NCBI GenBank assembly: GCA_964016885.1
Contig: OZ024757.1
Span: 682,001 to 746,000 of the forward strand
Reading direction: 5' to 3'
DNA: 64,000 nucleotides
From: Eledone cirrhosa
Taxonomy: Eukaryota
In this document: piece by piece, positions 2,990 through 43,107 of the stretch
Layout: each line of letters starts with the position of its first letter
How positions within the stretch are numbered: position 1 is the stretch's first letter
The notes under the pieces: model-generated
What the model saw: only the letters and a program-made list of their open reading frames with translations
Told to the model about the DNA's origin: nothing
Database searches by the model: none
Program-made: the position numbers and the translations under genes

Positions 2990-3180
2990 AATGAAGGAAG
3001 TGTGGTAAGGAACCAGGTGGACCATAACACACCAGAGTACTCGATACTTAGGGTAGTAGAGTGGGTAACAGGAAAAGAGTCAAGACCCCGACGGCTGAGT
3101 TCTGGCCGTTTTGACAGCTGGATCTGAACTAGCTGTCAAAACGGCCAGAACTCAGCCGTCGGGGTCCTGACTCTTTTCCC
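2990..3180. mobile_element. TA-flanked interspersed element ending in a 49-bp-arm hairpin (probable Penelope-like terminus)
   Basis: Sits between (TA)n runs. Arms 3071-3119 and 3131-3179 have one mismatch and an 11-nt loop. Shares cagag(t/c)actc(g/a)a with ~5830 and ~22903. Confidence 0.55.
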
Positions 3181-3299
3181 ATATATATATATAATATGTG
3201 TGTGTGTGTGTATGTGTGAATTTACTACATCTAAGATATACGGCATGTTTAATAAATAAACATTTTGAAAGCCTCAGTTATAAATAGAAGACTGACAGC

Positions 3300-3315
3300 C
3301 AGCGCCATCTGGTGG
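3300..3315 (-). promoter_or_regulatory. Consensus CTCF-type motif
   Basis: Minus strand reads CCACCAGATGGCGCTG, matching the CTCF core CCACCAGRKGGCRS. Confidence 0.6.
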
Positions 3316-4679
3316 AATTCAGCAAAGTCAAGGACTATATTTGTCTCTGCATTTCAAACTAAAATGGTTCTCGTCATCACAGTGCTTACCTCTGCCTACA
3401 GCTGGACTTTGAGACAGGTGAAAATATATAGTTTTTTCACCTGTGTAAATGACTAATTAGCCTCATTTACAATCAACATAGCTGACACTAAAGCAACAAA
3501 CACAAGCTTCAGTATTGAACGTCTCTCTCTCCTACATGAAAGGTGGTACTACTAAAACCAGTAAACAACACCTGTTCAATCAACATTAACCAACAACATA
3601 CACCTGCTTTAATATCAACATCTGCTCTCTCCTCTATTGGCTGCAGCACATTTTGTCATACATACTTTATATCTCTTCTGTGTGTATGTCATATCTACTT
3701 AATATTTAGCCCTTGAACAAAAACACCTCCATACAGTTTGAGGGTATTGTGTTTGTATTTGAACACACTCTAAGGTAGGTAACTCTAAGTCATGTTTGTA
3801 GTTGGTGGTGGTGGTGGCACTGTTGACATCTTACTGTTACCATGACTACCAATGTTATTTTCCCAAACTCAATGTTTCTAGATATAAGTTGGAAACCAGA
3901 GGCAACAAAGTGGGGTTCCAGCTAGATCCTGTCAACCAAAACTCCATGTGACTTAATTGACCTGGATTGGGCCTGGCCCCTATAAAGTGTAAGCAGTTAA
4001 TGACTGAAACACTTGTGTGAGAGGTGTTTCTTCTCTGAAGAACTTCTGCTATCCAGCTCTCTTGAGAGTTTCTTACCACTATCTTCTTCATATCTTTTCC
4101 CTGTGTATGTATATATGCCACATTTTCTTCTATAGCTCCATGTATATATATATATATGTGTGTGTGTGTTAGCCTCACATTAAATTTTGGGTCTTTATTG
4201 AATTTATAAAAACACTACTAAAAATATCACATGTGGAACCTGTAATATTATTTTACATATTCATTTCTGTTAGTTTTTGGTTGTTGTTTCTGAAATATAA
4301 CTGAAAGTGAGTCCTCAATCAATGGAATTTGACTCCAACAGAACTAGTTCTGGCTTGGTTTTTATGGTGAATGTCCTTCCTAACGCCAAATATATTTAGC
4401 GTGTGCAGTTGGTGATCTTTGTTATGACACCTACACAACCACTTTACAATTTGGGTTGGGCGCTTTTTGTCATGTCACACATGACCACTTTACTGTGTTT
4501 ATATATATATATAACATGTATATCAAAATATGTCTTCACTTATAAATATATAAAGTATATAGCAAGAGTGAGAGAAATTCAATCCTATTTCCCGAATGCA
4601 GACTCTGGGACACAAGAGATGTACAAGGTAAGTTAACTAAGAACGTAGGTTTTATATGTGGTCATTGTATTGGAACAGT

Positions 4680-5597
4680 AAACAGCAATCACTCTCAGGG
4701 GACAAGCTCTATGAAATTCTTTGAGGGTTCTATAGAACAGTTGACAGATTCTGTTACCTGGGTGACCTAATCAACAGTGAAGGTAGGTGTTCTGAAAGTA
4801 CAGTAACCAGAGTAAGAAGGGGATGGCAAAGTTCAGGGTGCTACTACAGCAAATAGCTACATTTAGTGGTCTAAAGTATGCATCACTTCTCCCCCTCCAC
4901 ACACCATAACCCTACCATTCCTTAACACCCCACCACCTTCCAGCTCAGTATCCCACACTGACCTACCTCTCCAATCCACACCCTACATACACACCCCAAC
5001 ACCATTTTCCACCTCTAATGCACCTCTCTTGACCAACCAATGTAGTCAAGTATAGAAAGCTTAACATGCTCTCCCACAATGCTGCTGAAATGGCTAAAAG
5101 CCCTCAGTCCACCCTCAGTAAGGTTGTCATACAGGTGTTATGACAAAACAGCAGCTAACCTTCCCTGTAAGGTAGATGTGCTGGTGACATGACAAATAAG
5201 TAATCAGTCCACCCTGTGAGGTGGTCATGTTGGGGACATGACAGAAGGTACCCAGCTCATTTTGTAAAGTGGTCATGTTAGTGGCAAGACAGATGGCACC
5301 TGAACTGCCCTGATGAGCACACAAGTTGGTGACATGACAAAGAGCACCTACTCTGCCTTCTAAGGTGATGGTGGTTGTTGTGATGGTGACACAACAATAG
5401 TACCCAGTCCACCCTATAGAGTGGTCATGTTAGTGACATGAGACAACAATAACTGCACAGTCCACCTTGTAAATGTGGTTGGTGTTAGGAAGACCATCCA
5501 GCAATAGAAACCAAGGCAGAAATGGTTTGTGAGCAAGAAATGGTCGTCTGATCTGACTTGTTTCACAACAGGACGACTAGTCTGACCCATGCTATCG
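4680..5597 (+). mobile_element. Old RTE LINE 3' end and 3' UTR with expanded internal repeats
   Basis: 4725-4850 matches the VDSFCYLGD..CSES..RVR segment. 5480-5595 matches the RTE 3' UTR at 25430-25550. Degenerate cagtccaccctgtaa..gtggtcatgttagtgacatgac repeats lie between. Confidence 0.65.
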
Positions 5598-5729
5598 TAT
5601 ATATATATGTATATATATTTATATATACATATTCATACATTCATATCTAAATATATGTATATAAACTTTGTTGGTCATTCATGACAGAGTGAGTTCGTCA
5701 ATGTATGTATATATATATATATGTATGTT

Positions 5730-5774
<45 letters not shown>

Positions 5775-5777
<3 letters not shown>

Positions 5778-6130
5778 CAAAGGGATATTTAATTTGTTGG
5801 TAATTCAACAGATATATTTATAACAGATTCAGAGCACTCGACTGGTTTTCTGGAGTATAATATCAATGATATTAATAAATGGAAACTATTTATAAAACCA
5901 TATTTATTCTATTATATATATATTTCAAGGGTACCAAAACTTTGGTACGCTCTCATCAGATAAAATACAAAGTTTGTTTTATAAATAGTGACATATCCAG
6001 GAATGAGACTTCACCGGTTCAAGTTCCGTCTGGAACTTGAACCGTTAAGGTCTGATTCTTGAAATATATATAATAGAATAAATATGGCTATATAAATATA
6101 GCTTCCATTTATTAATATCATTGATATATA
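5775..6130. mobile_element. TA-flanked palindromic element (Penelope-like inverted pLTR remnant)
   Basis: Imperfect inverted arms 5861-5929 and 6057-6125, an internal hairpin cggttcaagttcc-gtct-ggaacttgaaccg, and a hammerhead core. Confidence 0.6.
5905..5967 (-). ncRNA. Minimal type I hammerhead ribozyme motif
   Basis: Minus strand reads tattttat CTGATGA gagcgtaccaaa-gt-tttggtaccctt GAAA tatatat ATA atagaata. Stem I is 8 bp, stem II is paired, and stem III is palindromic. Confidence 0.65.
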
Positions 6131-6512
6131 TATATAAAGAATCTTACTTTATTAACAAATACGGACCCCGTCTAAACACTTCTTCCTAAGACGAACCCAC
6201 AACATACACACGTTGTCATACATACCTACATCAGCATACATCCTACATACATTTCTATCCACATATAAACACAATGACATACGTAAACACACGTTCTATG
6301 GCGCAACACAAATATACACAAATTCGCATACCTTTTGATGTTTATAGATATACATGTGCCGACATGCACACATACGCATACACACACATGTATTGAACAT
6401 TGATGGGTGCATACATATTTGTACACAAGTATCCCATACGGCAGGGCCCCATCGATTCCCCTTGCAGTACGTCCAATTTGGACTCACACACGCCTTGTTG
6501 TTATGACAATAC

Positions 6513-9500
6513 TATAACGGCGGCGAAGATTCGAAAACGAATCTGAGCTTTCCCGCCTCTGGGACAAGCCGTGGTAACTTGTTTACGCTCAAGAGACTTG
6601 GGAGAGGCTAAACACAGGTCAGAGGTGTTTACGCCTGACAGAAAATAGGTCAGAGGATATACCCATCTTTCTGACTTGTTTACGCTTCGCAAACTAATCC
6701 CTTGGGAGACTAACCAAAGTTCAGAGGATATATCTATCCTTCTAACTTCAACTCTTATAAAGACAGGGATTGTTTACGCCCAACCACACACAGATTTGCT
6801 GCGGCAGCATACAACCAAAAACGCAAACATCAAGCTCAGCGAAAAAGAATGTACTGCTTTCGCTGAGTTGAAGAAAATGTTTTCCGAGGCTACAATGCTG
6901 AGTTACCCCAAATCTGACGCCCCAATGTGTTTATTGACTGATGCATCCGATTTCGGAGTTGGAGGTGTGCTTCAACAACTCTCTGGCGATATTTGGCGAC
7001 CTGTATCTTTTTTCTCTAAGCGATTAAAACCCGCCGAAACTAAGTACAGCACATTCAGTCGTGAATTATTGGCAGCATATCTTGCTGTCAAGCATTTTCG
7101 ACACATGCTAGAAGGTCGTGTGTTCGCTATATACACCGACCACAAACCACGAGTGTACGCGTTCAATGCCAAGCCTGACCGACACTCACCCAGGGAGGTC
7201 CGACATCTGGACTTCATTTCTCAGTACACTACTGATATTCGGTACATTAAGGGTGCCACCAATTCAGCAGCTGATGCTCTATTGCGCATGGAGCTTAACG
7301 CAATCCACACCACTGCCACTATCGACCTCCGGAAGATTGCAGCGGATCAACAGAATGACGAGGAACTGCTGCAACTCCGGAAATCATCCTTGAAATTGAA
7401 GGAATGCCCGCTGCCCTCTTCTTCGGGTTATATTTGGTGCGACATCTCCACAGGCCACGAGCGCCCATACGTGCCCCGGAAACATCGACGCGACGTTTTC
7501 TCGGCACTGCATTCACTGGCTTTGTGTGGCCCAACATCAACAAGGACACCCGCGAATGGGCTAGGAACTGCATCGCGTGCCAGAAGGCGAAAATTCACCG
7601 GCACATCAAAGCCCCGATCGGTTCTTTCGCAACACCTGATGCACGGTTCCAACATGTGCATATAGACATAGTTGGACCTTTGCTTCCTTCCCACAACTAC
7701 ACTCATCTTCTCACCTGTGTCGACCGATTTTCTCCTCTGACGGATATTACTGCGGAAACTGTCGCCAAAACGCTAGTGTTTCACTGGGTTTCGCGTTTCG
7801 GCACACCCGCGACCATCACTACGGATAGAGGACGTCAGTTCGATTCGCACCTATTTACCGAGCTGACTCGTCTCCTCGGGTGCAAACACATCCGTACAAG
7901 AGCGTATCACCCTGCCGCTCACGGCATGGTAGAACGCTTACACCGCCAGCTAAAATCATCTAGCAAGGCTTACGAAGACTCCACTAACTGGTTCGAATAC
8001 CTCCCACTCATTCTTCTTGGTATTCGTTCCACTGTTAAGGAGGGAGTCGGACATTCTCTGGCTGAAATGGTGTATGGCACCGTACTCACTCTACCCGGAC
8101 AAATGATTGCTCCTGTTTCGCCACAAGAACTTCCAGACCCTACAAAATTTGTGCACTGTTTACGGTCATCGATGTCGCATCTGTCTCCTTCAGCCCCTAA
8201 ACAACAGCACGTTACTTCACACATACCAAAAGACATCGATACATGGACGCATGTTTTCGTTAGAAATGACTGTATTCCATCGCAACTTCGTCCGCCGTAT
8301 TCCGGGCCCTATAAGGTGATACAGAAATGCCCTAAGTATTTCGTCCTCGACTTGAACGGGAAACGAAATACTGTCTCCATTGATCGTTTAAAAAAAGCGT
8401 TCATAGAACAGGAATTGCCACCAGTACCCATCGTTTCTCCGGCAGACTTACCAACAACTTTGTCCGACACAAACACGACAAATTCTGCACAACCCCGACA
8501 CACCAAATCCGGAAGAACAGTCCGATGGCCCACGCTATACATACAAGTTTATCGGATAAGTACAAATTATGCATCTGGTCGACATTTCGGCTAATTTGTA
8601 TATTTCAGTGAATCGGCCAATTTCTGTGGTCATGAACTATTGCTACACACAAATCAATTAACTCTGTGCATCACCCACATCAAAAGAACAGACAAAAGAA
8701 CATTTTTCCGTTTCTATGAAATGAACGAACTTTTAATCAACAAACTTTTCGTACGAACATTTTCAATTTTATGTAACATCACAGTACATTTTCCTGCATG
8801 TAAATTTCTTTTGCTTTACATGTTTTCTTTCATGTCTCCTATTTGTAAATGACTTTCATGTGTTTTTTTATTTTTACTGATTTTCTTCAACAACACACCT
8901 AGTCATACCTATCTTCATTTCACATGCACCTAGATCGTTCAATCTTAGCTTTCTCACTGGAAGGGGGATACTATAACGGCGGCGAAGATTCGAAACCGAA
9001 TCTGAGCTTTCCCGCCTCTGGGACAAGCCGTGGTAACTTGTTTACGCTCAAGAGACTTGGGAGAGGCTAAACACAGGTCAGAGGTGTTTACGCCTGACAG
9101 AAAATAGGGCAGAGGATATATCCATCTTTCTGACTTGTTTACGCTTGGCAAACTAATCCCTTGGGAGACTAACCAAAGTTCAGAGGATATATCTATCCTT
9201 CTAACTTCAACTCTTATAAAGACAGGGATTGTTTACGCCAAAAATAGAAAAGAAGTGGATACAGACAAGACGACGTTTTTTACAAGCTCTCGTCACGAAA
9301 AACCAGTCTGCCATTTATTTTCACCTTCCTGGCTGATCGCTGACTCCTGCAATACAAATAAGTAAATATACTGATACGCCGCTCACACGCATTCATAGTG
9401 AGTCCACCATTTGTACACGCACCATTCATTTCTGTTTACACATATTATAATCGTATTCTGTGATATTTGAATTTACGTGGCTCGATGAGCCACCAAATTA

Positions 9501-9678
9501 TTGTATGAATATTTTGTGTCAATTATTTTATCATTCAATATTCAAATTGAATATTGTGGTAATAAAATAAACTTTGTAACAACACTCCTGGTATTTTTCT
9601 TTACATCGAAACCACCATACCAACAGTTACATCCATCCATCCACTTGTCGTTACAACCACACATAATATTCCGTTACA
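6513..9678 (+). mobile_element. Internally deleted Ty3/Gypsy LTR retrotransposon
   Basis: 5' LTR stub 6513-6780; full 3' LTR 8972-9678 (TATAACGG...CCGTTACA); polypurine tract GGAAGGGGGA at 8959-8968; 4-bp ATAC duplication at 6509-6512 and 9679-9682; domain order RNase H then integrase. Confidence 0.93.
6781..8594 (+). pseudogene. pol: Gypsy pol remnant (RT connection, RNase H, integrase)
   Basis: RNase H motifs LLTDASDFGVGGVLQQ, YSTFSRELLA, YTDHKP, NSAADAL. Integrase motifs [32 protein letters not shown] frameshifting deletion lies in the HHCC finger (~7520) and a short in-frame deletion follows CVDRFS. Confidence 0.9.
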
Positions 9679-10019
9679 ATACTCTACATCATTTCACCTC
9701 TTTTATTATTGATGTTATTTAGAGAGAATCGTTTTTGCAAATGACTGAAATTATCGAATATTATGTACGCCATTTTTACCTGTACCACAAAAATACTGGT
9801 CCATACACACACACACTCGAACACTAACATACAGACAGACACACACACTTCTCCGTATAAGACAAGAGCTGAAAAATATGTTTCAACATGTTAAAATAAA
9901 CCCCCACACATTCCTACTGACCGATTCATTTCCCTTATCACAACAATGAACCACTTTGCTACTCCCCCCCCCCCCCCCACACATTCCTACTGACCGATTC
10001 ATTTCCATTATCACAACAA

Positions 10020-10373
10020 GGCGGTGGATTGGCAGTATCGGTAGAGGGTCGGACGCCATGCTTTCCAGCATAGTTACGTCCCTTTACGATCTGAGTTCAA
10101 ATCCCGCCGAGGTTGACTTTGCCTTTCATCCTTACGGAGTCGATAAAATAAAGTACCAGTAATGCACTGGGTAATTGCTGGCCTTGTGCCTAAAGTAGAG
10201 ACAATTATCACAACAATGGGCGGTCGAGTGGCGGATGCCATGCTTTCCAGCATAGTTACGTCCCTTTACGATCTGAGTTCAAATCCCGCCGAGGTTGACT
10301 TTACCTTTCATCCTTACGGGGTCGATAAAAATAAATTACCAGTAATGCTGGCCTTGTGCCTAAAGTAGAAACA
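10020..10373 (+). mobile_element. Tandem dimer of a tRNA-derived SINE
   Basis: A-box-like tggcagtatcggtag, B-box gagttcaaatccc and core gccgaggttgactttgcctttcatcc..gtcgataaa..gtaccag. ATTATCACAACAA occurs at 10007, 10204 and 10374. Confidence 0.85.
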
Positions 10374-10479
10374 ATTATCACAACAAATGAACCACTTTGC
10401 TACACACACACATATAGTTGTCTTAATAGACATCTGAACTGTTGACCTCTCAACATGACTGCAACTAAATCAAGCGGAA

Positions 10480-10780
10480 AAGGTCACTCTTCGACAAACC
10501 TACATTTGGCGCGAAACCAGCTCGCGCTAAAATCAATTTAAACATTCACGTGACCTCTACCGATCAATCAAAATTGTTTTGACTACAAGAATTTATGCCA
10601 TACGAATAGGCGCAAATTTTATAGTGTTTATTCACGTGACATTCAACAACCAACCAAATTTTAATGCCTCTCAAGCCACTTTTTTCACATAAAACTGATC
10701 AGATTAGAGCAAAAATCACGAGCACTCTATCTCAAAATTATTTTTTGAAAAGCATAAGAAATGCGCAACCGGTAAAAACT
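10480..10780. promoter_or_regulatory. Candidate promoter with E2F and E-box sites
   Basis: TTTGGCGCGAAA at 10505-10516 (double E2F site), further GCGC-core variants at ~10522 and ~10608, ATTCACGTGAC twice (~10544, ~10630), locally CpG-enriched. Confidence 0.45.
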
Positions 10781-11160
10781 TAAAACTAAAACTGAATACT
10801 AATTAATACTTATTACTAATTTATACTTATTCCTAATTGAACTATTTTTCACTGGGAAAAATTTGTCAGCATTTACTTTTCCTTTTTACTAATATATCAC
10901 AACTCGTGTGTCACACCTCTATTTTATATATATATACAATTAAGTTAAAAATGTACATCTACATATGCATACTGAAATACTAGTGTGTATATGAATACAC
11001 ACACGTATACATATGCAGATGTAACAAGTCTTTCACTGGTTGCTTTACTGTGAGCAACTCAGCTATTCTGTATGTAAACACACAGACAAACCGGTTTTTA
11101 GAGTCATACTGGTTTTCGAGGAAACATCTTCCCTCTATTCTTCAGAAAGCCAGACAAGGA

Positions 11161-11203
11161 ATATTGAACTAGTTTCGTTGTTGTTACAACTCATCAGCAA
11201 TAT
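11161..11203 (-). ncRNA. Minimal type I hammerhead ribozyme, intact core
   Basis: Minus strand reads atattg CTGATGA gttgt-aaca-acaac GAAAC ta GTT caatat. Stem I is a perfect 6 bp, stem II is 5 bp with a G10.1-C11.1 pair, and stem III is the palindrome AACTAGTT. Confidence 0.8.
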
Positions 11204-11369
11204 TTCGTTATTTGTTTTTATTATTTCGTTATTTGTTTTTATCGTCTCCGCTGAACCGGTGCGTACTCACACTCTATGCAAATTAGTCTGCCCACTACTA
11301 ATTTTCATAGAAAAAGCATATAACGATATGTGCTTTTACAATTCTCCAGAAAGGCCGGTAGATAGGTAA

Positions 11370-11412
11370 ATATTGCTGATGGGTTGTAACAACAACGAAA
11401 CTAGTTCAATAT
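11370..11412 (+). ncRNA. Hammerhead motif copy with A9>G core substitution (likely impaired)
   Basis: atattg CTGATGG gttgtaacaacaac GAAACtaGTT caatat. Confidence 0.7.
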
Positions 11413-11721
11413 TCCTTGTCTGGCTTTCTGGGGAATAGAGGGAAGATGTTTCCTCGAAAACCAGTATGACTCTAAAAACCGGTTTGTCTGTGTGTTTACA
11501 TACAGAATAGCTGAGTTGCTCACAGTAAAGCAACCAGTGAAAGACTTGTTACATCTGCATATGTATACGTGTGTGTATTCATATACACACTAGTATTTCA
11601 GTATGCATATGTAGATGTACATTTTTAACTTAATTGTTTAAGCGTCAGTCATACAAAAGTGAGTTACAAACGAAACGAAATTTAATTTCGTTTCGTTATT
11701 TGTTTTTATATATATATATAT

Positions 11722-11932
11722 CAAAGACCCCCCTAGGTCACAAATGCCCATGTGATTTGCACCTAGAAAGTTTACCTCTGAGGCACAGGTCCGGGCAAAG
11801 TTGTATTAATAAGACCAACAGTCGACCATGCATATCACCTTTCACTTTCCACGCCACCAGTGATGTCCACCGGAAAGGCTATGGCCGATACAGCTTGGCA
11901 ATAAAGTGTCTTGCTCAAGGACACAACACATC
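11722..11932 (-). mobile_element. SINE-like interspersed repeat, truncated
   Basis: GC-richer block ending aaagtgtcttgctcaaggacacaac, the usual antisense signature downstream of tRNA-SINE heads; recognised from memory only. Confidence 0.5.
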
Positions 11933-13025
11933 ACTTTTCGATCTAACCCCTAACGCATGTTCCTCAACATGTATTTATATATATGTATATATATTAACAC
12001 ACCCGTGCATCTTCTGACGGTCTCCCACCGTATTCCGAAGTCTGAACAAAAGACTTACTGTTGTTGATTGTATAACCAAAATTAAGAGAGTCTAAACAAA
12101 AAACAAAGTTGTAAAAGATAATTTAGCTGCTATTTCTAGCAGTGTGAGATACTACGTAGAGGTTTCCTTATCGATATTTAACTGAGTGATACTTTTCGAT
12201 TTACCATCAATTAGATACGATTGGAAATGTGTTTGAATAAAATAAATTATATCAGGGACTTTTAACGTACAACACCGGTAAGAAAGTTTAAACATTGTCA
12301 ACGCACCGCGTACCTGCTGTCTTCATTACAATTTTAATTAGTCTAATTATATCTTGTGTAACAATTAAATATATATATACACACATAATTTTCTTTCCCT
12401 GACATCAGTCTTACACTGTCATATCTATTAACTTTACAATTGTGTCTACTAAGAGTTCCATTATAATCTGTAGTAGAAAAACGTCTATTTCACCAGAATA
12501 TCTGATATCAGTCATTTGTAGACAATATATATATTTAAACCACATATCAACCTAATATATACATATTTCCTATCAAATCTCTGGCTAAAGACATAAAGTC
12601 GGCCTCACTACTTTATTCTGACAAGATATCAATTCATGACTAAATATGAAGAAGTTACACCAACGTTGATGTCCTGAAATAAAGCTGATAACATCTTTGA
12701 AATTTCTAATTTAACAACAAAGAGATTATTTCTTTTGTTGCTTAGTAAAAACTAACAACTCTACACATTGATTATATATGAAGGAGGTAAGTGGACAAAG
12801 ATTCATTTGAAGTCTATAATAATGTATGTAAAAAATAGAATTATGTGAACCTTTCAACGATACAGTAATTATATAAAAGTGAAATTATATAACAACATTG
12901 AGAGAAGATATTTCAACCTCGTCATTTTATATATAGAGAAAAATACTTCCAAACTGAAATGGGTTATTTTTCAATAGACAGATTCCACTGTAACATGTAA
13001 TATAAAATATATTGTTATCATGACT

Positions 13026-13245
13026 GTCTTTATTATTTCAATTACCTCCATCTATTTATGTTATTTACTACCTTATATTATAAAATATATTTTATATTTA
13101 ACTGTACCTCGTTGTTAGAATAAATTAAAGATATCTTTATTATTTCAATTACCTCTGTCTATTTATTATGTTATTTACTACCTTATATTATAAAATATAT
13201 TTTATATTTAACTGTACCTCGCTGTTTGACGTAAATTAAAGTTAT
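13026..13245. repeat. Two-copy tandem repeat, ~110-bp unit
   Basis: tctttattatttcaattacctc...aactgtacctcg...taaattaaag occurs twice. Confidence 0.85.
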
Positions 13246-13539
13246 CGTGGTTTTAGTCTAAATCTCTTTCAAATTAATTCACTTCATCTGCTTATGGTTG
13301 AAACTTATTTAAACGTGGGTTTCGTTTCATTGACTAAAGTACCAGTAATACACTGTGATAATTGCTGGCCTTGTGCCAAAAGTAGAAACAATTATGACTA
13401 TGTCAGGATTAGCCAGCCAAGTAGGGATTGTATATCAGGGAGCTGCTTTGATGGTGAAGGGACATTTGTTGGTGGCTGTACATAATAGGGTTCTAATAGA
13501 GTTAGCTGAAACACCGTCTGATACATGTCTTGTGGACAC

Positions 13540-13852
13540 GATGATATATATGTAAGTCCTGGGGTACTCTATGTAATATATGTGTAGTACCTAGTAGTGC
13601 TACTTTCTGTTGTATAGATATGTGTGTGTGTGTGTAAGTTGTGAGGTTTCTGTTATGTGTCTTGCTGTTTTGTTTTATTCCCAGAGCAATTATTATTACG
13701 GGTATTGTTTCTGTTTTCACCGTCCACGTTTGAATTATTTCTACCTCAAGATCTTTATATTTAGATAATTTCTCCATTTCCTTGAGAGAGATATTATCGT
13801 CCAAGAGGATTGTTACATTAATTAGAAGGCATAATTATTTGCCTTTTTATCA
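13540..13852 (-). mobile_element. Non-LTR retrotransposon restriction-like endonuclease fragment (R4/Dong-like)
   Basis: DKK..CLLINVTI..DDNISLKEMEKLSKYKDLEVEI..W.VKTETIPVII.ALG...IQQKVALLGTTHIL matches the C-terminal RLE domain pattern. Confidence 0.75.
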
Positions 13853-16800
13853 CATATCATTCCTTGTTATATCACTACCAGTAGTCAATAGCCTGTCATA
13901 TCATTCCTTGTTATATCACTACCAGTAGTCTATAACCTGTCATATCATTCCTTGTTATATCACTACCAGTAGTCAATAACCTGTCATGTCATTCCTTGTT
14001 ATATCACTACCAGTAGTCAATAACCTGTCATATCATTCCTTGTTATATCACTACCAGTAGTCAATAACCTGTCATATCATTCCTTGTTATATCATTACTA
14101 GTAGTCAATAACCTGTCATATCATTCCTTGTTATATCACTACCAGTAGTCTATAACCTGTCATATCATTCCTTGTTATATCACTACCAGTAGTCAATAAC
14201 CTGTCATATCATTCCTTGTTATATCACTACCACTAGTCAATAACCTCTTATATCATTCCTTGTTATATCACTACCACTAGTCAATAACCTCTCAAATCAT
14301 TCCTTGTTATATCACTACCACTAGTCAATAACCTCTCAAATCATTCCTTGTTATATCACTACCAGTAGTCAATAACCTGTCATATCATTCCTTGTTATAT
14401 CACTACCAGTAGTCAATAACCTGTCATATCATTCCTTGTTATATCACTACCAGTAGTCAATAACCTGTCATATCATTCCTTGTTATATCACTACCAGTAG
14501 TCAATAGCCTGTCATATCATTCCTTGTTATATCACTACCAGTAGTCAATAACCTGTCATATAATTCCTTGTTATATCACTACCAGTTGTCAATAACCTGT
14601 CATATCATTCCTTGTTATATCACTACTAGTAGTCAATAACCTCTCATATCATTGCTTGTTATATCACTACCAGTAGTCAATAACCTGTCATATCATTCCT
14701 TGTTATATCACTACCAGTAGTGAATAACCTCTCATATAATTCCTTGTTATATCACTACCAGTTGTCAATAACCTGTCATATCATTCCTTGTTATATCACT
14801 ACTAGTAGTCAATAACCTCTCATATCATTGCTTGTTATATCACTACCAGTAGTCAATAACCTGTTATATCACTACCAGTAGTCAATAACCTCTCATATCA
14901 TTCCTTGCTATATCACTACCAGTAGCCAATAACCTCTCATATCATCGTTGTTATATCACTACCAGTAGTCAATAACCTGTCATATCATTCCTTGTTATAT
15001 AACTACCAGTAGCCAATAACCTCTCATATCATTCCTTGTTATATCACTACCAGTAGTCAATAATCTGTCATATCATTCCTTGTTATATCACTACCAGTAG
15101 TCAATAACCTCTCATATCCTTCCTTGTTATATCACTACCAGTAGTCAATAACCTGTCATATCATTCCTTGTTATATCACTACCAGTAGAAAATAACCTGT
15201 CATATCATTCCTTGTTATATCACTACCAGTAGAAAATAACCTGTCATATCATTCCTTGTTATATCACTACCAGTAGTCAATAACCTCTCATATCATTCCC
15301 TGTTATATCACTACCAGTAGTCAATAACCTGTCATATCATTCCTTGTTATATCACTACCAGTAGTCAATAACCTCTCATATCATTCCTTGTTATATCACT
15401 ACCAGTAGTCAATAACCCGTCATATCATTCCTTGTTATATCACTGCCAGTAGTCAATAACCTCTCATATCATTCCTTGTTATATCACTACCAGTAGTCAA
15501 TAACCTGTCATATCATTCCTTGTTATATCACTACCAGTAGTCAATAACCTCTCATATCATTCCTTGTTATATCGCTACCAGTAGTCAATAACCTGTCATA
15601 TCATTCCTTGTTATATCACTACCAGTAGTCAATAACCTGTCATATCATTCCTTGTTATATCACTACCAGTAGTCAATAACCTGTCATATCATTCCTTGTT
15701 ATATCACTACCAGTAGTCAATAACCTGTCATATCATTCCTTGTTATATCACTGCCAGTAGTCAATAACCTGTCATATCATTCCTTGTTATATCACTACCA
15801 GTAGTCAATAACCTGTCATATCATTCCTTGTTATATCACTACCAGTAGTCAATAACCTGTCATATCATTCCTTGTTATATCACTACCAGTAGTCAATAAC
15901 CTGTCATATCATTCCTTGTTATATCACTACCAGTAGTCAATAACCTGTCATATCATTCCTTGTTATATCACTACCAGTAGTCAATAACCTGTCATATCAT
16001 TCCTTGTTATATCACTACCAGTAGTCAATAACCTGTCATATCATTCCTTGTTATATCACTACCAGTAGTCAATAACCTCTCATATCATTCCTTGTTATAT
16101 CACTAACAGTAGTCAATAACCTGTCATATCATTCCTTGTTATATCACTACCAGTAGTCAATAACCTCTCATATCATTCCTTGTTATATCACTACCAGTAG
16201 TCAATAACCTCTCATATCATTCCTTGTTATATCACTACCAGTAGTCAATAACCTCTCATATCATTCCCTGTTATATCACTACCAGTAGTCAATAACCTGT
16301 CATATCATTCCTTGTTATATCACTACCAGTAGTCAATAACCTGTCATATCATTCCTTGTTATATCACTGCCAGTAGTCAATAACCTCTCATATCATTCCT
16401 TGTTATATCACTAACAGTAGTCAATAACCTGTCATATCATTCCTTGTTATATCACTACCAGTAGCCAATAACCTGTCATATCATTCCTTGTTATATCACT
16501 ACCAGTAGTCAATAACCTCTCATATAATTCCTTGTTATATCACTACCAGTAGTCAATAGCCTGTCATATCATTCCTTGTTATATCACTAACAGTAGTCAA
16601 TAACCTGTCATATCATTCCTTGTTATATCACTACCAGTAGTCAATAACCTCTCATATCATTCCTTGTTATATCACTAACAGTAGTCAATAACCTGTCATA
16701 TCATTCCTTGTTATATCACTACCAGTAGTCAATAACCTATCATATAATTCCTTGTTGTATCACTACCAGTAGTCAATAGCCTGTCATATCATTCCTTGTT

Positions 16801-19378
16801 ATATCACTACTAGTAGTCAATAGCCTGTCATATCATTCCTTGTTATATCACTACTAGTAGTCAATAGCCTGTCATATCATTCCTTGTTATATCACTACTC
16901 GTAGTCAATAGCCTGTCATATCATTCCTTGTTATATCACTACCACTAGTCAATAGCCTGTCATATCATTCCTTGTTATATCACTACCAGTAGTCAATAAC
17001 CTGTCATATCATTCCTTGTTATATCACTACCAGTAGTCAATAGCCTGTCATATCATTCCTTGTTATGTCACTACCAGTAGTTAATAACCTGTCATATCAT
17101 TCCTTGTTATATCACTACCAGTAGTCAATAACCTCTCATATCATTCCTTGTTATATCACTACCAGTAGTCAATAACCTCTCATATCTTTCCTTGTTATAT
17201 CACTACCAGTAGTCAATAACCTGTCATATCATTCCTTGTTATATCACTACTACCAGTAGTCAATAGCCTGTCATATCATTCCTTGTTATATCACTACTAG
17301 TAGTCAATAGCCTGTCATATCATTCCTTGTTATATCACTACTCGTAGTCAATAGCCTGTCATATCATTCCTTGTTATATCACTACCAGTAGTCAATAACC
17401 TCTCATATCATTCCTTGTTATATCACTACCAGTAGTCAATAACCTCTCATATCATTCCTTGTTATATCAATACCAGTAGTCAATAACCTGTCATATCATT
17501 CCTTGTTATATCACTACTACCAGTAGTCAATAGCCTGTCATATCATTCCTTGTTACATCACTACTAGTAGTCAATAGCCTGTCATATCATTCCTTGCTAT
17601 ATCACTACTAGTAGTCAATAGCCTGTCATATCATTCCTTGTTATATCACTACCAGTAGTCAATAACCTCTCATATCATTCCTTGTTATATCACTACCAGT
17701 AGTCAATAACCTGTCATATCATTCCTTGTTATATAACTACCAGAAGTCAATAACCTGTCATATCATTCCTTGTTATGTCACTACCAGTAGTCAATAACCT
17801 GTCATATCATTCCTTGTGATATCACTACCAGTAGTCAATAACCTCTCATATAATTCCTTGTTATATCACTAACAGTAGTCAATAACCTATCATATCATTC
17901 CTTGTTATATCACTACCAGTAGTCAATAACCTCTCATATCATTCCTTGTTATATCACTACCAGTAGTCAATAACCTCTCATATCATTCCTTGTTATATCA
18001 CTACTACTAGTAGTCAATAACCTCTCATATCATTCCTTGTTATATTACTACCAGTAGTCAATAACCTGTCATATCATTCCTTGTTATATCACTACCAGTA
18101 GTCAATAACCTCTCATTTCATTCCTTGTTATATCACTACCAGTAGTCAATAACCTGTCATATCATTCCTTGTTATATCACTACTACCAGTAGTCAATAGC
18201 CTGTCATATCATTCCTTGTTATATCACTACTAGTAGTCAATAGCCTGTCATATCATTCCTTGCTATATCACTACTAGTAGTCAATAGCCTGTCATATCAT
18301 TCCTTGTTATATCACTACCAGTAGTCAATAGCCTGTCATATCATTCCTTGTTATATCACTACTAGTAGTCAATAGCCTGTCATATCATTCCTTGTTATAT
18401 CACTACTCGTAGTCAATAGCCTGTCATATCATTCCTTGTTATATCACTACTCGTAGTCAATAACCTCTATCATTCCTTGTTATATCACTACTAGTAGTCA
18501 ATAACCTGTCATATCATTCCTTGTTATATCACTACTACCAGTAGTCAATAGCCTGTCATATCATTCCTTGTTATATCACTACTCGTAGTCAATAACCTCT
18601 CATATCATTCCTTGTTATATCACTACTAGTAGTCAATAACCTGTCATATCATTCCTTGTTATATCACTACTACCAGTAGTCAATAGCCTGTCATATCATT
18701 CCTTGTTATATCACTACTAGTAGTCAATAACCTCTCATATCATTCCTTGTTATATCACTACCAGTAGTCAATAGCCTGTCATATCATTCCTTGTTATACC
18801 ACTACCAGTAGTCAATAGCCTGTCATATCATTCCTTGTTATATCACTACCAGTAGTCAATAGCCTGTCATATCATTCCTTGTTATACCACTACCAGTAGT
18901 CAATAGCCTGTCATATCATTCCTTGTTATATCACTACCAGTAGTCAATAGCCTGTCATATCATTCCTTGTTGTACCACTACCAGTAGTCAATAGCCTGTC
19001 ATATCATTCCTTGTTATATCACTACCAGTAGTCAATAGCCTGTCATATCATTCCTTGTTATACCACTACCAGTAGTCAATAGCCTGTCATATCATTCCTT
19101 GTTATATCACTACCAGTAGTCAATAGCCTGTCATATCATTCCTTGTTATACCACTACCAGTAGTCAATAGCCTGTCATATCATTCCTTGTTATATCACTA
19201 CCAGTAGTCAATAGCCTGTCATATCATTCCTTGTTATATCACTACCAATAGTCAATAGCCTGTCATATCATTCCTTGTTATATCACTACCAGTAGTCAAT
19301 AGCCTGTCATATCATTCCTTGTTATATCACTACCAGTAGTCAATAACATCTCATATCATTCATTGTTATTTCACTACT
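13853..19378. repeat. 44-bp satellite array, ~125 monomers
   Basis: Consensus CATATCATTCCTTGTTATATCACTACCAGTAGTCAATAACCTGT; period 44 measured directly. Confidence 0.98.
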
Positions 19379-28030: not shown

Positions 28031-28905
28031 TACACAAGGTTGTATAATGTAACATATGTATATTTATGTCTATATATATAGACATTACACAAAGTTATAT
28101 AATGTAATATATATATATATGTCTGTATATAGAGACATTACACAAGGTTGTATAATGTAATATTGACATATGTATATATATGTCTGTATATATAGACATC
28201 ACACAAGGTTGTATAATGTAACATATATATATATTTATGTCTATATATATAGACATTACACAAGGTTATAAAATGTAATATATATATATATGTCTGTATA
28301 TATAGACATTACAGACGGTTGTACAATGTAATATTGACATATGTATATATGTCTGTATATATAGATATCATACAAGGTTGTATGATGTAATATTGATAAC
28401 AAATTAAAAAACTAAAGTAAGTTGATTTTTCAATTAAAGGTCTATATCTAGAGATTATTGATGTAAAAGTCTAAAATTTTCTCTAATAGATCTATCTCTA
28501 GTATTTAAGTATTCTCTATTATCTCATACTGTTTCTTTCTTATTTCAGAATACCAGATGACATTGGGATAAATTTTTAAACCTTGGATACATCAACATTT
28601 ATCATCAAAGACTAAAGTGTTTTATACAGAACTGATATAACACTGTTTATATAAATCTATGACTGACTTAGTGTACAATATTTCATCAGAAGTGAGTTTA
28701 TTGGCAAATGTTCGTTTCTTCACTATCTCGAATGAAGATTTTGTATTTTAATTAAACTTGGATGACAAAGAAGTTTTCATAATCTTCAGATATTAACTGA
28801 GATCAAAGTTGATAGAAATATAGAATCAGACAATATTTCTAGAAATATAATATAAATAAAACACAAGAAAAACGTCTATATACTTTGGTGAGAAGAAGAA
28901 ACATT

Positions 28906-30435
28906 ATGGAAAATAAGTTGGGTGAAAAGAAGGTTAAATGTGAAACATTGCCTAAAGGTATTAGTATTCCTAATGAGATAACAAAGAATAGAGGAGAGAA
29001 GCCATACCATTGTGATATCTGTGGTAAATCATTCTCTCAGAAAGGACACTTAACAAGACACAATCTCATCCATACAGGAGAGAAACCATACCATTGTAAT
29101 ATCTGTGGTAAATCATTCTCTCGAGATAATGTCTTCACAAATCACAAACGTATTCATACAGGAGAGAAACCATACCACTGTGATATCTGTGGTAAATCAT
29201 TTTCAAAGAAAGGAAACTTATTAACACACAATCTTACTCATACAGGAGAGAAGCCATACCATTGTAATATCTGTGGTAAGTCATTTTCACAGAAAGGAAG
29301 CTTATTAACACACAATCTTACTCATACAGGAGAGAAACCATACCACTGTGATATCTGTGGTAAATCATTCTCTCTGAAAAGACACTTAACAACACACAAT
29401 CTCATCCATACAGGAGAGAAACCATACCATTGTAATATCTGTGGTAAATCATTCTCTCAAAATAATGCCTTAACAAATCACAAACGTGTTCATACAGGAG
29501 AGAAACCATACCAGTGTGATATCTGTGGTAAATCATTCTCTCAGAAAGTACACTCAGCAACACACAATCTCATCCATACAGGAGTGAAGCCCTATCACTG
29601 TGATATCTGTGGTAAATCATTCTCTCTGAAAAGACACTTAACAACACACAATCTCATCCATACAGGAGAGAAACCATACCATTGTAATATCTGTGGTAAA
29701 TCATTCTCTCAAAATAATGTCTTAACAAATCACAAACGTATTCATACAGGAGAGAAACCATACCACTGTGATATCTGTGGTAAAGCATTCTCTCTGAAAG
29801 GACACTTAACAACACACAATCTCATCCATACAGGAGAGAAACCATTCCACTGTGATATCTGTGGTAAATCATTTTCAAAGAAAGGAAACTTATTAACACA
29901 CAATCTTACTCATACAGGAGAGAAGCCATACCATTGTAATATCTGTGGTAAGTCATTTTCACAGAAAGGAAGCTTATTAACACACAATCTTACTCATACA
30001 GGAGAGAAACCATACCACTGTGATATCTGTGGTAAATCATTCTCTCTGAAAAGACACTTAACAACACACAATGTCATCCATACAGGAGAGAAACCATACC
30101 ATTGTAATATCTGTGGTAAGTCATTTTCACAGAAAGGAAGCTTATTAACACACAATCTTACTCATACAGGAGAGAAGCCATACCATTGTAATATCTGTGG
30201 TAAATCATTTTCACAGAAAGGACACTTATTAGCACACAATCTTACTCATACAGGAGAGAAGCCATACCATTGTAATATCTGTGGTAAGTCATTTTCACAG
30301 AAAGGAAGCATATTAACACACAATCTTACTCATACAGGAGAGAAACCATACTACTGTGATATCTGTGGTAAATTATTCTCTCTGGAAGGACATTTAACAA
30401 CACACAATCTCATCCATATAGGAGAGAAACCATAG
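28906..30435 (+). CDS. Tandem C2H2 zinc-finger protein, 17 fingers, 509 aa, no recognisable KRAB/ZAD-type effector domain
   Basis: ATG at 28906 (the ORF-track start at 28885 is TTG). 33-aa leader then 17 x 28-aa CxxC..HxxxH-TGEKP units. Strong acceptor AG at 28547-28548; AATAAA at 31517. Confidence 0.92.
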
Positions 30436-34216: not shown

Positions 34217-34686
34217 ATTATTATGCACATTCACTAGCTATATATAAAATACTACATTTCATCAGAAAGATTTCAAAGTTCGAGGTGAGGTCGCTGCATC
34301 TTACAATATACAAAGACCATGTCGAGAAAAATACTTTGGTAAGCAATCTTACTTATTTTCATTTGTACACTGATCCACACATCAAATTTTATCCATACAT
34401 ATCTTTATATATATATATATATAATGAAGGAAGTGTGGTAAGGAACCAGGTGGACCATAATGCACCAGAGTACTCGATACTTAGGGTTCTGGCCGTTTTG
34501 ACAGCTGGATCTGAACTAGCTGTCAAAACGGCCAGAACTCAGCCGTCGGGGTCCTGACTCTTTTCCCATATATATATATAATATGTGTGTGTGTGTGTAT
34601 GTGTGAATTTACTACATCTAAGATATACGGCATGTTTAATAAATAAACATTTTGAAAGCCTCAGTTATAAATAGAAGACTGACAGC

Positions 34687-34702
34687 CAGTGCCATCTGGT
34701 GG
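34687..34702 (-). promoter_or_regulatory. CTCF-type motif, unit 2 copy
   Basis: CCACCAGATGGCACTG; a CpG/TpG difference relative to unit 1. Confidence 0.55.
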
Positions 34703-37118
34703 AATTCAGCAAAGGCAAGGAGTATATTTGTCTCTGCATTTCAAACTAAAATGGTTCTCGTCATCACAGTGCTTACCTCTGCCTACAGCTGGACTTTGAG
34801 ACGGGTGAAAATATATAGTTTTTTCACCTGTGTAAATGACTAATTAGCCTCATTTACAATCAACATAGCTGACACTAAAGCAACAAACACAAGCTTCAGT
34901 ATTGAACGTCTCTCTCTCTCCTATATGACAAGTGGTACTACTAAAACCAGTAAACAACACCTGTTCAATCAACATTAACCAACAACACACACCTGCTTTA
35001 ATATCAACATCTGCTCTCTCCTCTATTGGCTGCAGCACATTTTGTCATACATACTTTATATCTCTTCTGTGTGTATGTCATATCTACTTAATATTTAGCC
35101 CTTGAACAAAAACACCTCCATACAGTTTCAGGGTATTGTGTTTGTATTTTAACACACTCTAAGGTAGGTAACTCTAAGTCATGTTTGTAGTTGGTGGTGG
35201 TGGTGGCACTGTTGACATCTTACTGTTACCATGACTACCAATGTTATTTTCCCAAACTCAATGTTTCTAGATATAAGTTGGAAACCAGAGGCAACAAAGT
35301 GGAGTTCCAGCTAGATCCTGTCAACCAAAACTCCATGTGACTTAATTGACCTGGATTGGGCCTGGCCCCTATAAAGTGTAAGCAGTTAAGGACTGAAACA
35401 CTTGTGTGAGAGGTGTTTCTTCTCTGAAGAACTTCTGCTATCCAGCTCTCTTGAGAGTTTCTTACCACTATCTTCTTCATATCTTTTCCCTGTGTATGTA
35501 TATATGCCACATTTTCTTCTATAGCTCCATGTATATATATATATATGTGTGGGTGTGTTAGCCTCACATTAAATTTTGGGTCTTTATTGAATTTATAAAA
35601 ACACTACTAAAAATATCACATGTGGAACCTGTAATATTTTTTTACATATTCATTTCTGTTAGTTTTTGGTTGTTGTTTCTGAAAAATAACTGAAAGTGAG
35701 TCCTCAATCAATGGAATTTGACTCCAACAGAACTAGTTCTGGCTTGGTTTTTATGGTGAATGTCCTTCCTAACGCCAAATATATTTAGCGTGTGCAGTTG
35801 GTGATCTTTGTCATGACACCTACACAACCACTTTACAATTTGGGTTGGGCGCTTTTTGTCATGTCACACATGACCACTTTACTGTGTTTATATATGTATA
35901 TAACATGTATATCAAAATATGTCTTCACTTATAAATATATAAAGTATATAGCAAGAGTGAGAGAAATTCAATCCTATTTCCCGAATGCAGACTCTGGGAC
36001 ACAAGAGATGTACAAGGTAAGTTAACTAAGAACGTAGGTTTTATATGTGGTCATTGTATTGGAACAGTAAACAGCAATCACTCTCAGGGGACAAGCTCTA
36101 TGAAATTCTTTGAGGGTTCTATAGAACAGTTGACAGATTCTGTTACCTGGGTGACCTAATCAACAGTGAAGGTAGGTGTTCTGAAAGTACAGTAACCAGA
36201 GTAAGAAGGGGATGGCAAAGTTCAGGGTGCTACTACAGCAAATAGCTACATTTAGTGGTCTAAAGTATGCATCACTTCTCCCCCTCCACACACCATAACC
36301 CTACCATTCCTTAACACCCCACCACCTTCCAGCTCAGTACCCCACACTGACCTACCTCTCCAATCCACACCCTACATACACACCCCAACACCATTTTCCA
36401 CCTCTAATGCACCTCTCTTAACCAACCAATGTAGTCAAGTATAGAAAGCTTAACATGCTCTCCCACAATGCTGCTGAAATGGCTAAAAGCCCTCAGTCCA
36501 CCCTCAGTAAGGTTGTCATACAGGTGTTATGACAAAACAGCAGCTAACCTTCCCTGTAAGGTAGATGTGCTGGTGACATGACAAATAAGTAATCAGTCCA
36601 CCCTGTGAGGTGGTCATGTTGGGGACATGACAGAAGGTACCCAGCTCATTTTGTAAAGTGGTCATGTTAGTGGCAAGACAGATGGCACTTGAACTGCCCT
36701 GATGAGCACACAAGTTGGTGACATGACAAAGAGCACCTACTCTGCCTTCTAAGGTGGTGGTGGTTGTTGTGATGGTGACACAACAATAGTACCCAGTCCA
36801 CCCTATAGAGTGGTCATGTTAGTGACATGAGACAACAATAACTGCACAGTCCACCTTGTAAATGTGGTTGGTGTTAGGAAGACCATCCAGCAATAGAAAC
36901 CAAGGCAGAAATGGTTTGTGAGCAAGAAATGGTCGTCTGATCTGACTTGTTTCACAACAGGACGACTAGTCTGACCCATGCTATCGTATATATATATGTA
37001 TATATATTTATATATACATATTCATACATTCATATCTAAATATATGTATATAAACTTTGTTGGTCATTCATGACAGAGTGAGTTCGTCAATGTATGTATA
37101 TATATATATATGTATGTT

Positions 37119-37162
<44 letters not shown>

Positions 37163-37289
37163 CAAAGGGATATTTAATTTGTTGGTAATTCAACAGATAT
37201 ATTTATAACAGATTCAGAGCACTCGACTGGTTTTCTGGAGTATAATATCAATGATATTAATAAATGGAAACTATTTATAAAACCATATT

Positions 37290-41760: not shown

Positions 41761-42322
41761 ATTATCACAACAAATGAACCACTTTGCTACACACACACAT
41801 ATAGTTGTCTTAATAGACATCTGAACTGTTGACCTCTCAACATGACTGCAACTAAATCAAGCGGAAAAGGTCACTCTTCGACAAACCTACATTTGGCGCG
41901 AAACCAGCTCGCGCTAAAATCAATTTAAACATTCACGTGACCTCTACCGATCAATCAAAATTGTTTTGACTACAAGAATTTATGCCATACGAATAGGCGC
42001 AAATTTTATAGTGTTTATTCACGTGACATTCAACAACCAACCAAATTTTAATGCCTCTCAAGCCACTTTTTTCACATAAAACTGATCAGATTAGAGCAAA
42101 AATCACGAGCACTCTATCTCAAAATTATTTTTTGAAAAGCATAAGAAATGCGCAACCGGTAAAAACTTAAAACTAAAACTGAATACTAATTAATACTTAT
42201 TACTAATTTATACTTATTCCTAATTGAACTATTTTTCACTGGGAAAAATTTGTCAGCATTTACTTTTCCTTTTTACTAATATATCACAACTCGTGTGTCA
42301 CACCTCTATTTTATATATATAT

Positions 42323-43107
42323 ACAATTAAGTTAAAAATGTACATCTACATATGCATACTGAAATACTAGTGTGTATATGAATACACACACGTATACATA
42401 TGCAGATGTAACAAGTCTTTCACTGGTTGCTTTACTGTGAGCAACTCAGCTATTCTGTATGTAAACACACAGACAAACCGGTTTTTAGAGTCATACTGGT
42501 TTTCGAGGAAACATCTTCCCTCTATTCTTCAGAAAGCCAGACAAGGAATATTGAACTAGTTTCGTTGTTGTTACAACTCATCAGCAATATTTCGTTATTT
42601 GTTTTTATTATTTCGTTATTTGTTTTTATCGTCTCCGCTGAACCGGTGCGTACTCACACTCTATGCAAATTAGTCTGCCCACTACTAATTTTCATAGAAA
42701 AAGCATATAACGATATGTGCTTTTACAATTCTCCAGAAAGGCCGGTAGATAGGTAAATATTGCTGATGGGTTGTAACAACAACGAAACTAGTTCAATATT
42801 CCTTGTCTGGCTTTCTGGGGAATAGAGGGAAGATGTTTCCTCGAAAACCAGTATGACTCTAAAAACCGGTTTGTCTGTGTGTTTACATACAGAATAGCTG
42901 AGTTGCTCACAGTAAAGCAACCAGTGAAAGACTTGTTACATCTGCATATGTATACGTGTGTGTATTCATATACACACTAGTATTTCAGTATGCATATGTA
43001 GATGTACATTTTTAACTTAATTGTTTAAGCGTCAGTCATACAAAAGTGAGTTACAAACGAAACGAAATTTAATTTCGTTTCGTTATTTGTTTTTATATAT
43101 ATATATA
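42323..43107. mobile_element. 270-bp inverted-repeat element with hammerheads, unit 2 copy
   Basis: Arms 42323-42592 and 42755-43024; intact hammerhead on the - strand at 42548-42590; same three arm mismatches as unit 1. Confidence 0.75.

What the first reader, a model, noticed from the sequence alone, without database searches (positions are those of the whole stretch)
10936..11637. 270-bp inverted repeat carrying opposed hammerhead ribozymes
Seen: the - strand of the left arm holds a well-formed minimal type I hammerhead (atattg CTGATGA gttgt aaca acaac GAAAC ta GTT caatat) plus a second degenerate core (CTGAAGA..gagggaa gatg tttcctc GAAA). The element is flanked by (TA)n and its 3' end is reiterated at the inner junction. 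Established: palindromic stem III minimal hammerheads act as dimers in Penelope-like elements and retrozymes. Inference: a non-autonomous ribozyme retroelement whose full-length transcript would fold into long dsRNA that masks its own ribozyme.
Basis: partly seen in the sequence, partly recalled or inferred. Interest (0 to 1): 0.75.

Follow-up and report, generated by a model that had tools for sequence, protein, structure and literature searches.

The report
Two-armed ribozyme repeat, Penelope footprint
This inverted repeat is one damaged copy of a 467-base, protein-free repeat with a hammerhead-ribozyme motif, present in thousands of copies that nearly always sit back to back with one long and one short fixed end, a footprint suggesting that Penelope-type jumping-gene enzymes likely paste the RNA in from both cut DNA strands rather than the hairpin being a built-in switch.

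Summary
The 270-bp inverted repeat and the left-arm hammerhead are real. The 'second core' is not a hammerhead, and the right-arm hammerhead has a private core mutation. The mobile unit is a 467-nt tandem monomer (11224-11690), a non-LTR retrozyme: 5,114 exact cores in a 3-Gb genome, plus about 14,000 cores of a sister family. Its hammerhead covaries, obeys NUH and is conserved. Insertions are head-to-head, target (TA)n and show 10-12-bp duplications where these can be read. One arm ends at 11709 and the other about 70 nt earlier in 32 of 33 end pairs. Autonomous Neptune-type Penelope-like elements (PLEs) here do the same (9 of 9). Both arms share one haplotype; their lengths and inner ends are independent. 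Best reading: PLE enzyme primes both nicked strands at two different sites of one retrozyme RNA; fold-back with central trimming is not excluded. The masking duplex would form only on read-through and looks like a by-product. No RNA data, no partner with homologous ends. The scan described this family before (e1-8803865, e1-8805983, e1-8668616).

The parts
9676..10924 (+). Host site: degenerate 3' end (pLTR region, long end) of an autonomous Neptune-type PLE family (here F4); the retrozyme sits in its TA tract
   Evidence: 77-92% matches to the 3' regions of GIY-YIG loci L076, L087, L117
10925..10936 (.). (TA)6 target tract, left; compatible with a ~12-bp target-site duplication but not provable in pure TA
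   Evidence: 10-12-bp duplications readable at other loci
10936..11205 (-). Short-ended (B) arm: 5'-truncated copy of unit positions 11368-11637, outer end at the fixed B site
11160..11205 (-). Type I hammerhead with intact core, GUU triplet, predicted cut between 11167 and 11166; distal helix I strand missing
11114..11145 (-). 'Second core': a side hairpin of the monomer, not a hammerhead
11201..11223 (+). Inner head-to-head junction with an extra 21-nt copy of the 3'-end motif
11224..11690 (+). One full 467-nt retrozyme unit (long-ended A arm continues to 11709)
   Evidence: tandem period 467 in arrays and in other runs
11276..11283 (+). Octamer ATGCAAAT, candidate snRNA-type promoter element (function untested)
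   Evidence: kept in 53 of 66 R1 and 36 of 42 R2 distinct 5' segments
11358..11424 (+). Full type I hammerhead with distal helix, but private A9G core change at 11382; predicted cut 11406/11407
11629..11642 (+). Small hairpin CTTAA-TTGT-TTAAG; short (B) ends fall in or beside its loop (11635-11640); sister family has an equivalent hairpin
11638..11709 (+). 'Tail' of about 70 nt between the B and A ends, with a 13-bp hairpin (11669-11697); long (A) end at 11707-11709
11707..11721 (.). (TA)n target tract, right
42320..43100 (+). Identical second copy of the whole insertion, part of a 31,387-bp segmental duplication
   Evidence: 1000 of 1000 bases identical

Best explanation
This is one two-armed insertion of a 467-nt hammerhead-bearing tandem repeat (a non-LTR retrozyme) that was likely written into a (TA)n tract by the reverse transcriptase/endonuclease of a Penelope-like element, which likely primed one cDNA from each nicked strand. 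Shown: unit, copy number, head-to-head layout, two fixed outer ends used one per insertion, TA target, 10-12-bp duplications, shared haplotype of the arms, random inner ends joined mostly by 1-9 nt of microhomology, same end rule in autonomous Neptune-type PLEs of this genome. Inferred: tandem copies are transcribed and cut by the hammerhead (probably as a dimer through the palindromic helix III) into monomers or circles; a PLE enzyme dimer nicks both strands about 12 bp apart, starts one cDNA at 11709 and the other at 11635-11640 on the same RNA (circle or uncut multimer, since arms run through the cut site), and the two cDNA ends are joined by repair. This copy has one hammerhead per direction, the full one mutated, so it is predicted to be a dead end; its long hairpin is a by-product of insertion.
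For: 5,114 exact 33-nt cores, control 0; 2,316 long ends on TA. Divergent end pairs under 5 kb on the first 96.7 Mb of C1: 32 of 33 long+short (36 of 38 under 15 kb, p 2.7e-9 against 50%). Position-sampled fetched loci: 34 of 48 long+short, 12 long only, 2 short only, none like+like (two of the 34 are duplicates). Neptune family F4: 9 of 9 long+short; two-armed Neptune loci L076, L116, L126, L127 likewise. Arms of one locus differ at 19 of 996 diagnostic sites against 39% across loci (38 loci). Inner ends not mirrored (7 of 41 within 30 nt, 5.4 expected; 29 of 41 with microhomology); in 18 of 65 pairs neither arm can be contained in the other, as expected for independent arms (18.4). Readable duplications at L009 (12 bp), L034 (11), L003, L023 (12), L028 (10). 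Hammerhead: position 17 is U 50, A 44, C 37, G 1 of 132 distinct motifs; 7 of 16 pairs change on both sides across 12 sequences; locus-wide changes 0 of 3,360 in the hammerhead vs 48 of 31,643 elsewhere, p 0.013. Circular monomer folds at -161 kcal/mol, z -10.9, hammerhead formed. Chimeric insertions join a retrozyme arm to Neptune F4 sequence (L145, L239). In vitro, a PLE protein cuts and extends both strands from two RNA sites that bound the tail (PMC11167929, parts 1-2 of 4 read).
Against: No RNA data: transcription, cleavage and circles are unshown. No autonomous PLE with homologous ends among 70 GIY-YIG loci fetched of 10,595 candidates. Shared haplotype and, in 4 of 7 informative loci, private variants in register from the centre fit fold-back or later gene conversion equally well; asymmetric central deletion of a palindrome would also give non-nested arms. 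Inner ends show no pile-up at whole turns, at the cut site or at the B site, so nothing singles out a circle. Long arrays show nested periods that look like later expansion. The two F4 chimeras could be deletions between neighbours, F4 being very abundant (4,817 long ends); one is long+long. Exceptions exist: L005 long+long, L272 short+short. The covariation rests on about three lineages. Single-copy changes are also rarer in the hammerhead (27 of 13,618 vs 511 of 129,716), so part of the conservation signal may not be selection during transposition.
Confidence: 0.68

Rival explanations
1. Same element and enzyme, but one priming only: the first cDNA (or an antisense template) folds back and is copied outward, the second end is fixed by sequence-specific cutting at the other site, and the palindrome centre is trimmed later (close to the self-priming idea in PMC3846280).
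For: Explains identical haplotypes and centre-registered variants at L009, L025, L110, L140; one junction is a perfect palindrome (L098).
Against: Symmetric centres are not enriched (7 of 41 vs 5.4); 18 of 65 pairs non-nested and arm lengths uncorrelated; tiny insertions with disjoint arms (L131, L136, L121) need large trims; both strands are extended in vitro (PMC11167929).
Confidence: 0.2
2. One reading: the inverted repeat is a functional part of the element, whose transcript forms long dsRNA that masks and so regulates its ribozyme.
For: A read-through transcript of this locus is predicted to fold into a 270-bp duplex covering the hammerhead; most insertions are two-armed.
Against: Arm length and junction are random, the core is in both arms in 50 of 77 loci; the repeating, selected unit is the monomer; arms diverge from the centre; coding PLEs show the same layout.
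Confidence: 0.06
3. The inverted repeat is unrelated to retrotransposition: a foldback/MITE-like DNA transposon or a later inversion inside a hammerhead satellite.
For: Terminal inverted sequence and TA-rich targets resemble MITEs; long arrays do expand after insertion.
Against: The two ends are different fixed points, not identical termini; inner ends are 5'-truncated; duplications are 10-12 bp; Neptune PLEs share the rule.
Confidence: 0.03

Closest known systems
Metazoan non-LTR retrozymes (PMC7229834, parts 2-4 of 6 and passages read; bioRxiv 10.64898/2026.07.22.740005, parts 1-3 of 5 read)
   Same: Non-coding tandem unit of a few hundred bases with one type I hammerhead, short palindromic helix III as in axolotl, low GC, thousands of copies, strongly self-paired monomer, co-occurrence with PLEs.
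   Different: Unit (467 nt) a little above the 150-450 bp range; head-to-head arms with two fixed ends are not described in the parts read ('inverted' occurs 0 times in PMC7229834); here no PLE with a homologous pLTR was found; RNA forms untested.
Insertions of endonuclease-bearing PLEs with an inverted 5'-truncated copy and one-sided tail (PMC8557442 passages; PMC3846280 passages and Discussion; PMC11167929 parts 1-2 of 4)
   Same: Head-to-head arms, tail at one end only, AT/microsatellite target, duplications near 9-12 bp, two start sites bounding the tail.
   Different: No ORF; both arms can hold many tandem units; tail about 70 nt rather than 30-40; pairing is near strict (32 of 33) rather than 'optional'.
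Opposed minimal hammerheads of Schistosoma PLE remnants (PMC4209133, parts 1-2 of 4)
   Same: Two hammerheads 100-700 bp apart on opposite strands were already noted.
   Different: The motif here is of the canonical type with a distal helix, in a retrozyme unit.
L1 twin priming (recalled, not read here)
   Same: Two primings from the two target strands on one RNA, joined by microhomology.
   Different: The second site is fixed, and the arms usually overlap in sequence.

Membership tests
Non-LTR retrozyme | Short tandem unit with a type I hammerhead in each unit | tested here: met
   467-nt period with one core per unit; this locus itself has only one unit
Non-LTR retrozyme | No protein coding, no LTR/PBS/PPT layout | tested here: met
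   No frame of 150 aa or more over the element; units are head-to-tail without LTRs; PBS/PPT not searched separately
Non-LTR retrozyme | Dispersed multicopy family with duplications longer than 4 bp | tested here: met
Non-LTR retrozyme | Highly self-paired monomer with foldable hammerhead | tested here: met
   z -10.9 against 60 shuffles; prediction only
Non-LTR retrozyme | Transcribed, self-cleaved, circular RNA | not testable with these tools
   No RNA holder listed
Type I hammerhead ribozyme | Core CUGANGA/GAAA/NUH with three helices and covariation | tested here: met
   Family level; right arm of this locus fails at A9
Type I hammerhead ribozyme | Rfam gathering score | tested here: not met
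   35.2 and 30.6 bits against 52 for HH9; short helix III costs score
Type I hammerhead ribozyme | Self-cleavage | not testable with these tools
   needs in vitro assay
Minimal PLE hammerhead (PMC4209133) | No helix III, long helix II with bulged base, poorly defined loop 1 | tested here: not met
   2-bp helix III, 5-bp helix II, distal helix I
Hammerhead (second core) | Conserved core with stems I and III and NUH | tested here: not met
EN+ PLE insertion signature | Inverted 5'-truncated copy, tail at one end, AT-rich target | tested here: met
Autonomous PLE | ORF with RT and GIY-YIG | tested here: not met
   None in the element; present in separate families of the genome
Non-autonomous derivative of a named PLE family | Ends homologous to a PLE pLTR | tested here: inconclusive
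   None among 70 of 10,595 GIY-YIG candidates; two chimeras with F4, one with another family
Neptune clade (candidate helpers) | RT then GIY-YIG with a CX2-5CxxC linker | tested here: met
   C-x4-C-x2-C read by eye in L111, L113, L114, L117, domains; no tree built, Nematis shares the linker

The most novel reading that the evidence does not exclude
A Penelope-type enzyme dimer loads on one small ribozyme circle and copies it by rolling from both nicked DNA strands at once, each subunit bound to use a different one of two start sites; thousands of these insertions would then be a direct record both of how animal retrozyme circles enter genomes and of why PLEs insert with an inverted arm and a one-sided tail.
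Probability: 0.33. Interest if true: 0.75.

Novelty: new variant of a known kind. Interest (0 to 1): 0.5.

Why it matters
Which enzyme mobilises animal retrozymes, and how PLEs make their inverted arm and tail, are open in the papers read. Here a 467-nt RNA with no coding constraint carries the whole PLE footprint, with a near-strict one-long-one-short rule that autonomous Neptune-type elements of the same genome share. That gives a minimal RNA substrate and two predicted start sites for the existing in vitro PLE assay. The locus itself is an ordinary damaged copy; the value lies in the family.

Tried and rejected
Second hammerhead: rejected. Simple fold-back: symmetric centres not enriched, arms often non-nested. 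Circle signature from arm length: phase flat; 17 of 59 long-ended and 10 of 30 short-ended arms end near a whole turn, about 20% expected; an apparent pile-up of inner ends at 11641-11690 (8 of 36) did not hold in the larger set. Inner ends at the cut site: 4 of 128 within 5 nt of 11407, about 3 expected (read). Dead hammerhead defining a dimer circle (L102): dropped, because longer arrays show periods unrelated to dead cores. Partner search by homology: no hit; the R2-F5 score was a TA/TG run; weak L114-family hits were not meaningful. RNA editing: locus-wide changes are A>G in 15 of 46 vs 38 of 405 single-copy changes (p 5e-5), but A>G vs T>C is not significant (15 vs 8, p 0.15), so only a hint. 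No RNA holder listed. A Pfam accession recalled from memory was not in the library. The bacterial promoter scan is not applicable. PMC9977147 (passages) had nothing relevant; PMC308520 was not held. The TSD script flagged 17 of 63 loci; only five clear ones are cited, and six had no call because an internal site was picked.

Full report
Observation. The inverted repeat is real: arms 10936-11205 and 11368-11637, with three internal mismatches and one at the TA edge. Each arm holds a hammerhead motif, found by Rfam HH9 below its gathering score. The left one has an intact core with a GUU triplet (allowed by the NUH rule, PMC9217987, passages) but lacks the 5' strand of the distal part of helix I. 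The right one is complete but reads CUGAUGG; 86 of 87 arms have A there. That A9 matters for cleavage is recalled, not read here. The 'second core' is not a hammerhead: most arms read CTGGAGA (G in 81 of 88), G12 is A in 34 of 89, and no stems I and III could be placed.

The unit. The window lies in a 3-Gb genome, probably a cephalopod (C2H2 arrays; host not tested). The sequence 11224-11690 recurs as a 467-nt tandem unit. A 33-nt core occurs 5,114 times exactly, control 0. A homologous sister family with a unit of about 440-500 nt gives 13,993 pattern matches, control 1. The 467-nt tandem joint also stands in contigs of four other coded organisms and in raw DNA reads of a fifth. Across these families helices I and II change on both sides in 7 of 16 pairs (12 sequences, about three lineages) and position 17 is G in 1 of 132 distinct motifs. 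Changes shared by all copies of a locus avoid the hammerhead (0 of 3,360 vs 48 of 31,643), though single-copy changes are also rarer there. The monomer folded as a circle is far more stable than shuffles (z -10.9) and shows the hammerhead. This meets the sequence criteria of a non-LTR retrozyme (PMC7229834); RNA forms could not be tested.

The inverted layout is a family rule. Insertions are mostly two arms pointing away from each other, each from a few bases to many units long. Outer ends fall at two points: long end at 11707-11709, short end at 11635-11640 in the loop of a small hairpin, about 70 nt apart. From pattern positions alone on the first 96.7 Mb of contig C1, 32 of 33 divergent end pairs under 5 kb are one long plus one short. 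Among 48 position-sampled insertions 34 are long+short, 12 long only, 2 short only, none like+like (two of the 34 are duplicates); among 29 similarity-sampled, 20 long+short and 1 long+long. Of 40 further long ends, 18 had a short end opposite, 22 were unresolved (several with short arms of a few bases by eye, four running off the stretch), none long+long. One short+short case exists. Targets are (TA)n; where readable the duplication is 10-12 bp (five clear loci of 63 examined), so both arms came in one event.

The same footprint in coding elements. The genome has 10,595 GIY-YIG candidates. The 70 loci fetched are mostly PLEs with RT, a C-x4-C-x2-C linker and GIY-YIG, i.e. Neptune type. They end in (TA)n, carry atypical hammerhead-like motifs with palindromic helix III, and pair long with short ends in 9 of 9 cases for family F4. 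The inverted truncated copy and one-sided tail are known PLE traits (PMC8557442, PMC3846280); the tail equals the distance between two RT start sites, and both strands are cut and extended in vitro (PMC11167929). No family shares ends with the retrozyme. Two insertions join retrozyme to F4 sequence (L145 long+short, L239 long+long) and one to another family (L035); template switching or deletion between neighbours could explain them. This locus sits in the TA tract at the end of an old F4 copy, which shows shared targets, not partnership.

Mechanism. Arms of one locus share their haplotype (19 of 996 vs 39%), so they come from one template or one from the other. Inner ends are not mirrored, arm lengths are uncorrelated and 18 of 65 pairs cannot be nested, and some tiny insertions have disjoint arms. 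This favours two primings on one RNA joined by microhomology. Fold-back followed by uneven trimming remains possible, and centre-registered variants in 4 of 7 informative loci fit it or gene conversion. Arms run through the cut site, so the template is a circle or an uncut multimer; arm phases do not tell these apart and long arrays look expanded after insertion.

The masking idea. A read-through transcript would form a 270-bp duplex, which could feed editing or silencing, but this is not a conserved design: the core is in both arms in 50 of 77 two-armed loci, junctions are random, and sense transcripts from either arm lead away from the other. With one hammerhead per direction this copy cannot release a unit-length RNA by double cleavage (inference).

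Novelty. Retrozymes, PLE inverted arms, tails and opposed hammerheads (PMC4209133) are all known. PLE mobilisation of retrozymes is proposed in PMC7229834 and supported by distribution and phylogeny in the 2026 preprint. Nine searches found no paper showing the PLE end signature on retrozymes or a strict end-pairing rule; an Octopus repeat annotation has no 'ribozyme' in its main text (PMC13282606, passages). I read no supplements, and those of PMC7229834, PMC11167929 and the preprint may bear on this; subscription papers are not covered. The scan's own earlier notes already describe this family in this genome; they agree but are not independent evidence. Verdict: new variant of a known kind, interest 0.5.

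Noticed in passing
window 3099-19376 and 34486-50735: A 31,387-bp segmental duplication; the element region is identical in both copies (recent duplication or assembly artefact).
   Followed up: partly
window 10745-10785: Atypical hammerhead-like motif of Neptune family F4 (U instead of C3, GCAA instead of GAAA, palindromic ACCGGT helix III); families F1 and F2 have similar variants, F3 a CUGAAGA core with a CUU triplet.
   Followed up: partly
window 11276-11283: Octamer kept in both retrozyme families; newt satellite 2 uses an snRNA-type promoter (passage in PMC2220036; that this involves an octamer is recalled).
   Followed up: partly
L085:2730-3100, L171, L188, L202-L231: Sister retrozyme family with GUA or GUU triplet, about 14,000 cores, same two-ended layout and a 62-nt tail.
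   Followed up: partly
L145:453-4218; L239:367-3430; L035:929-1835; L231:1079-1810: Chimeric insertions joining retrozyme arms to Neptune-type PLE sequence.
   Followed up: partly
L278+L279+L132, L240+L280, L259+L282: Arrays of up to about 30 units with nested higher-order periods: retrozyme insertions turning into satellites.
   Followed up: partly
all R1 loci: Changes inherited by all copies of a locus are rich in A>G (15 of 46), a possible trace of RNA editing or RT error.
   Followed up: partly
L126:2760-6025: A 3.3-kb near-perfect palindrome made of two Neptune F3 arms, one short-ended and one long-ended.
   Followed up: partly
window 6649-8594; 28843-30435; 13853-19377 and 45243-58243: Ty3/gypsy-type RNase H-integrase frames, a C2H2 zinc-finger array and a 44-bp satellite.
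   Followed up: no
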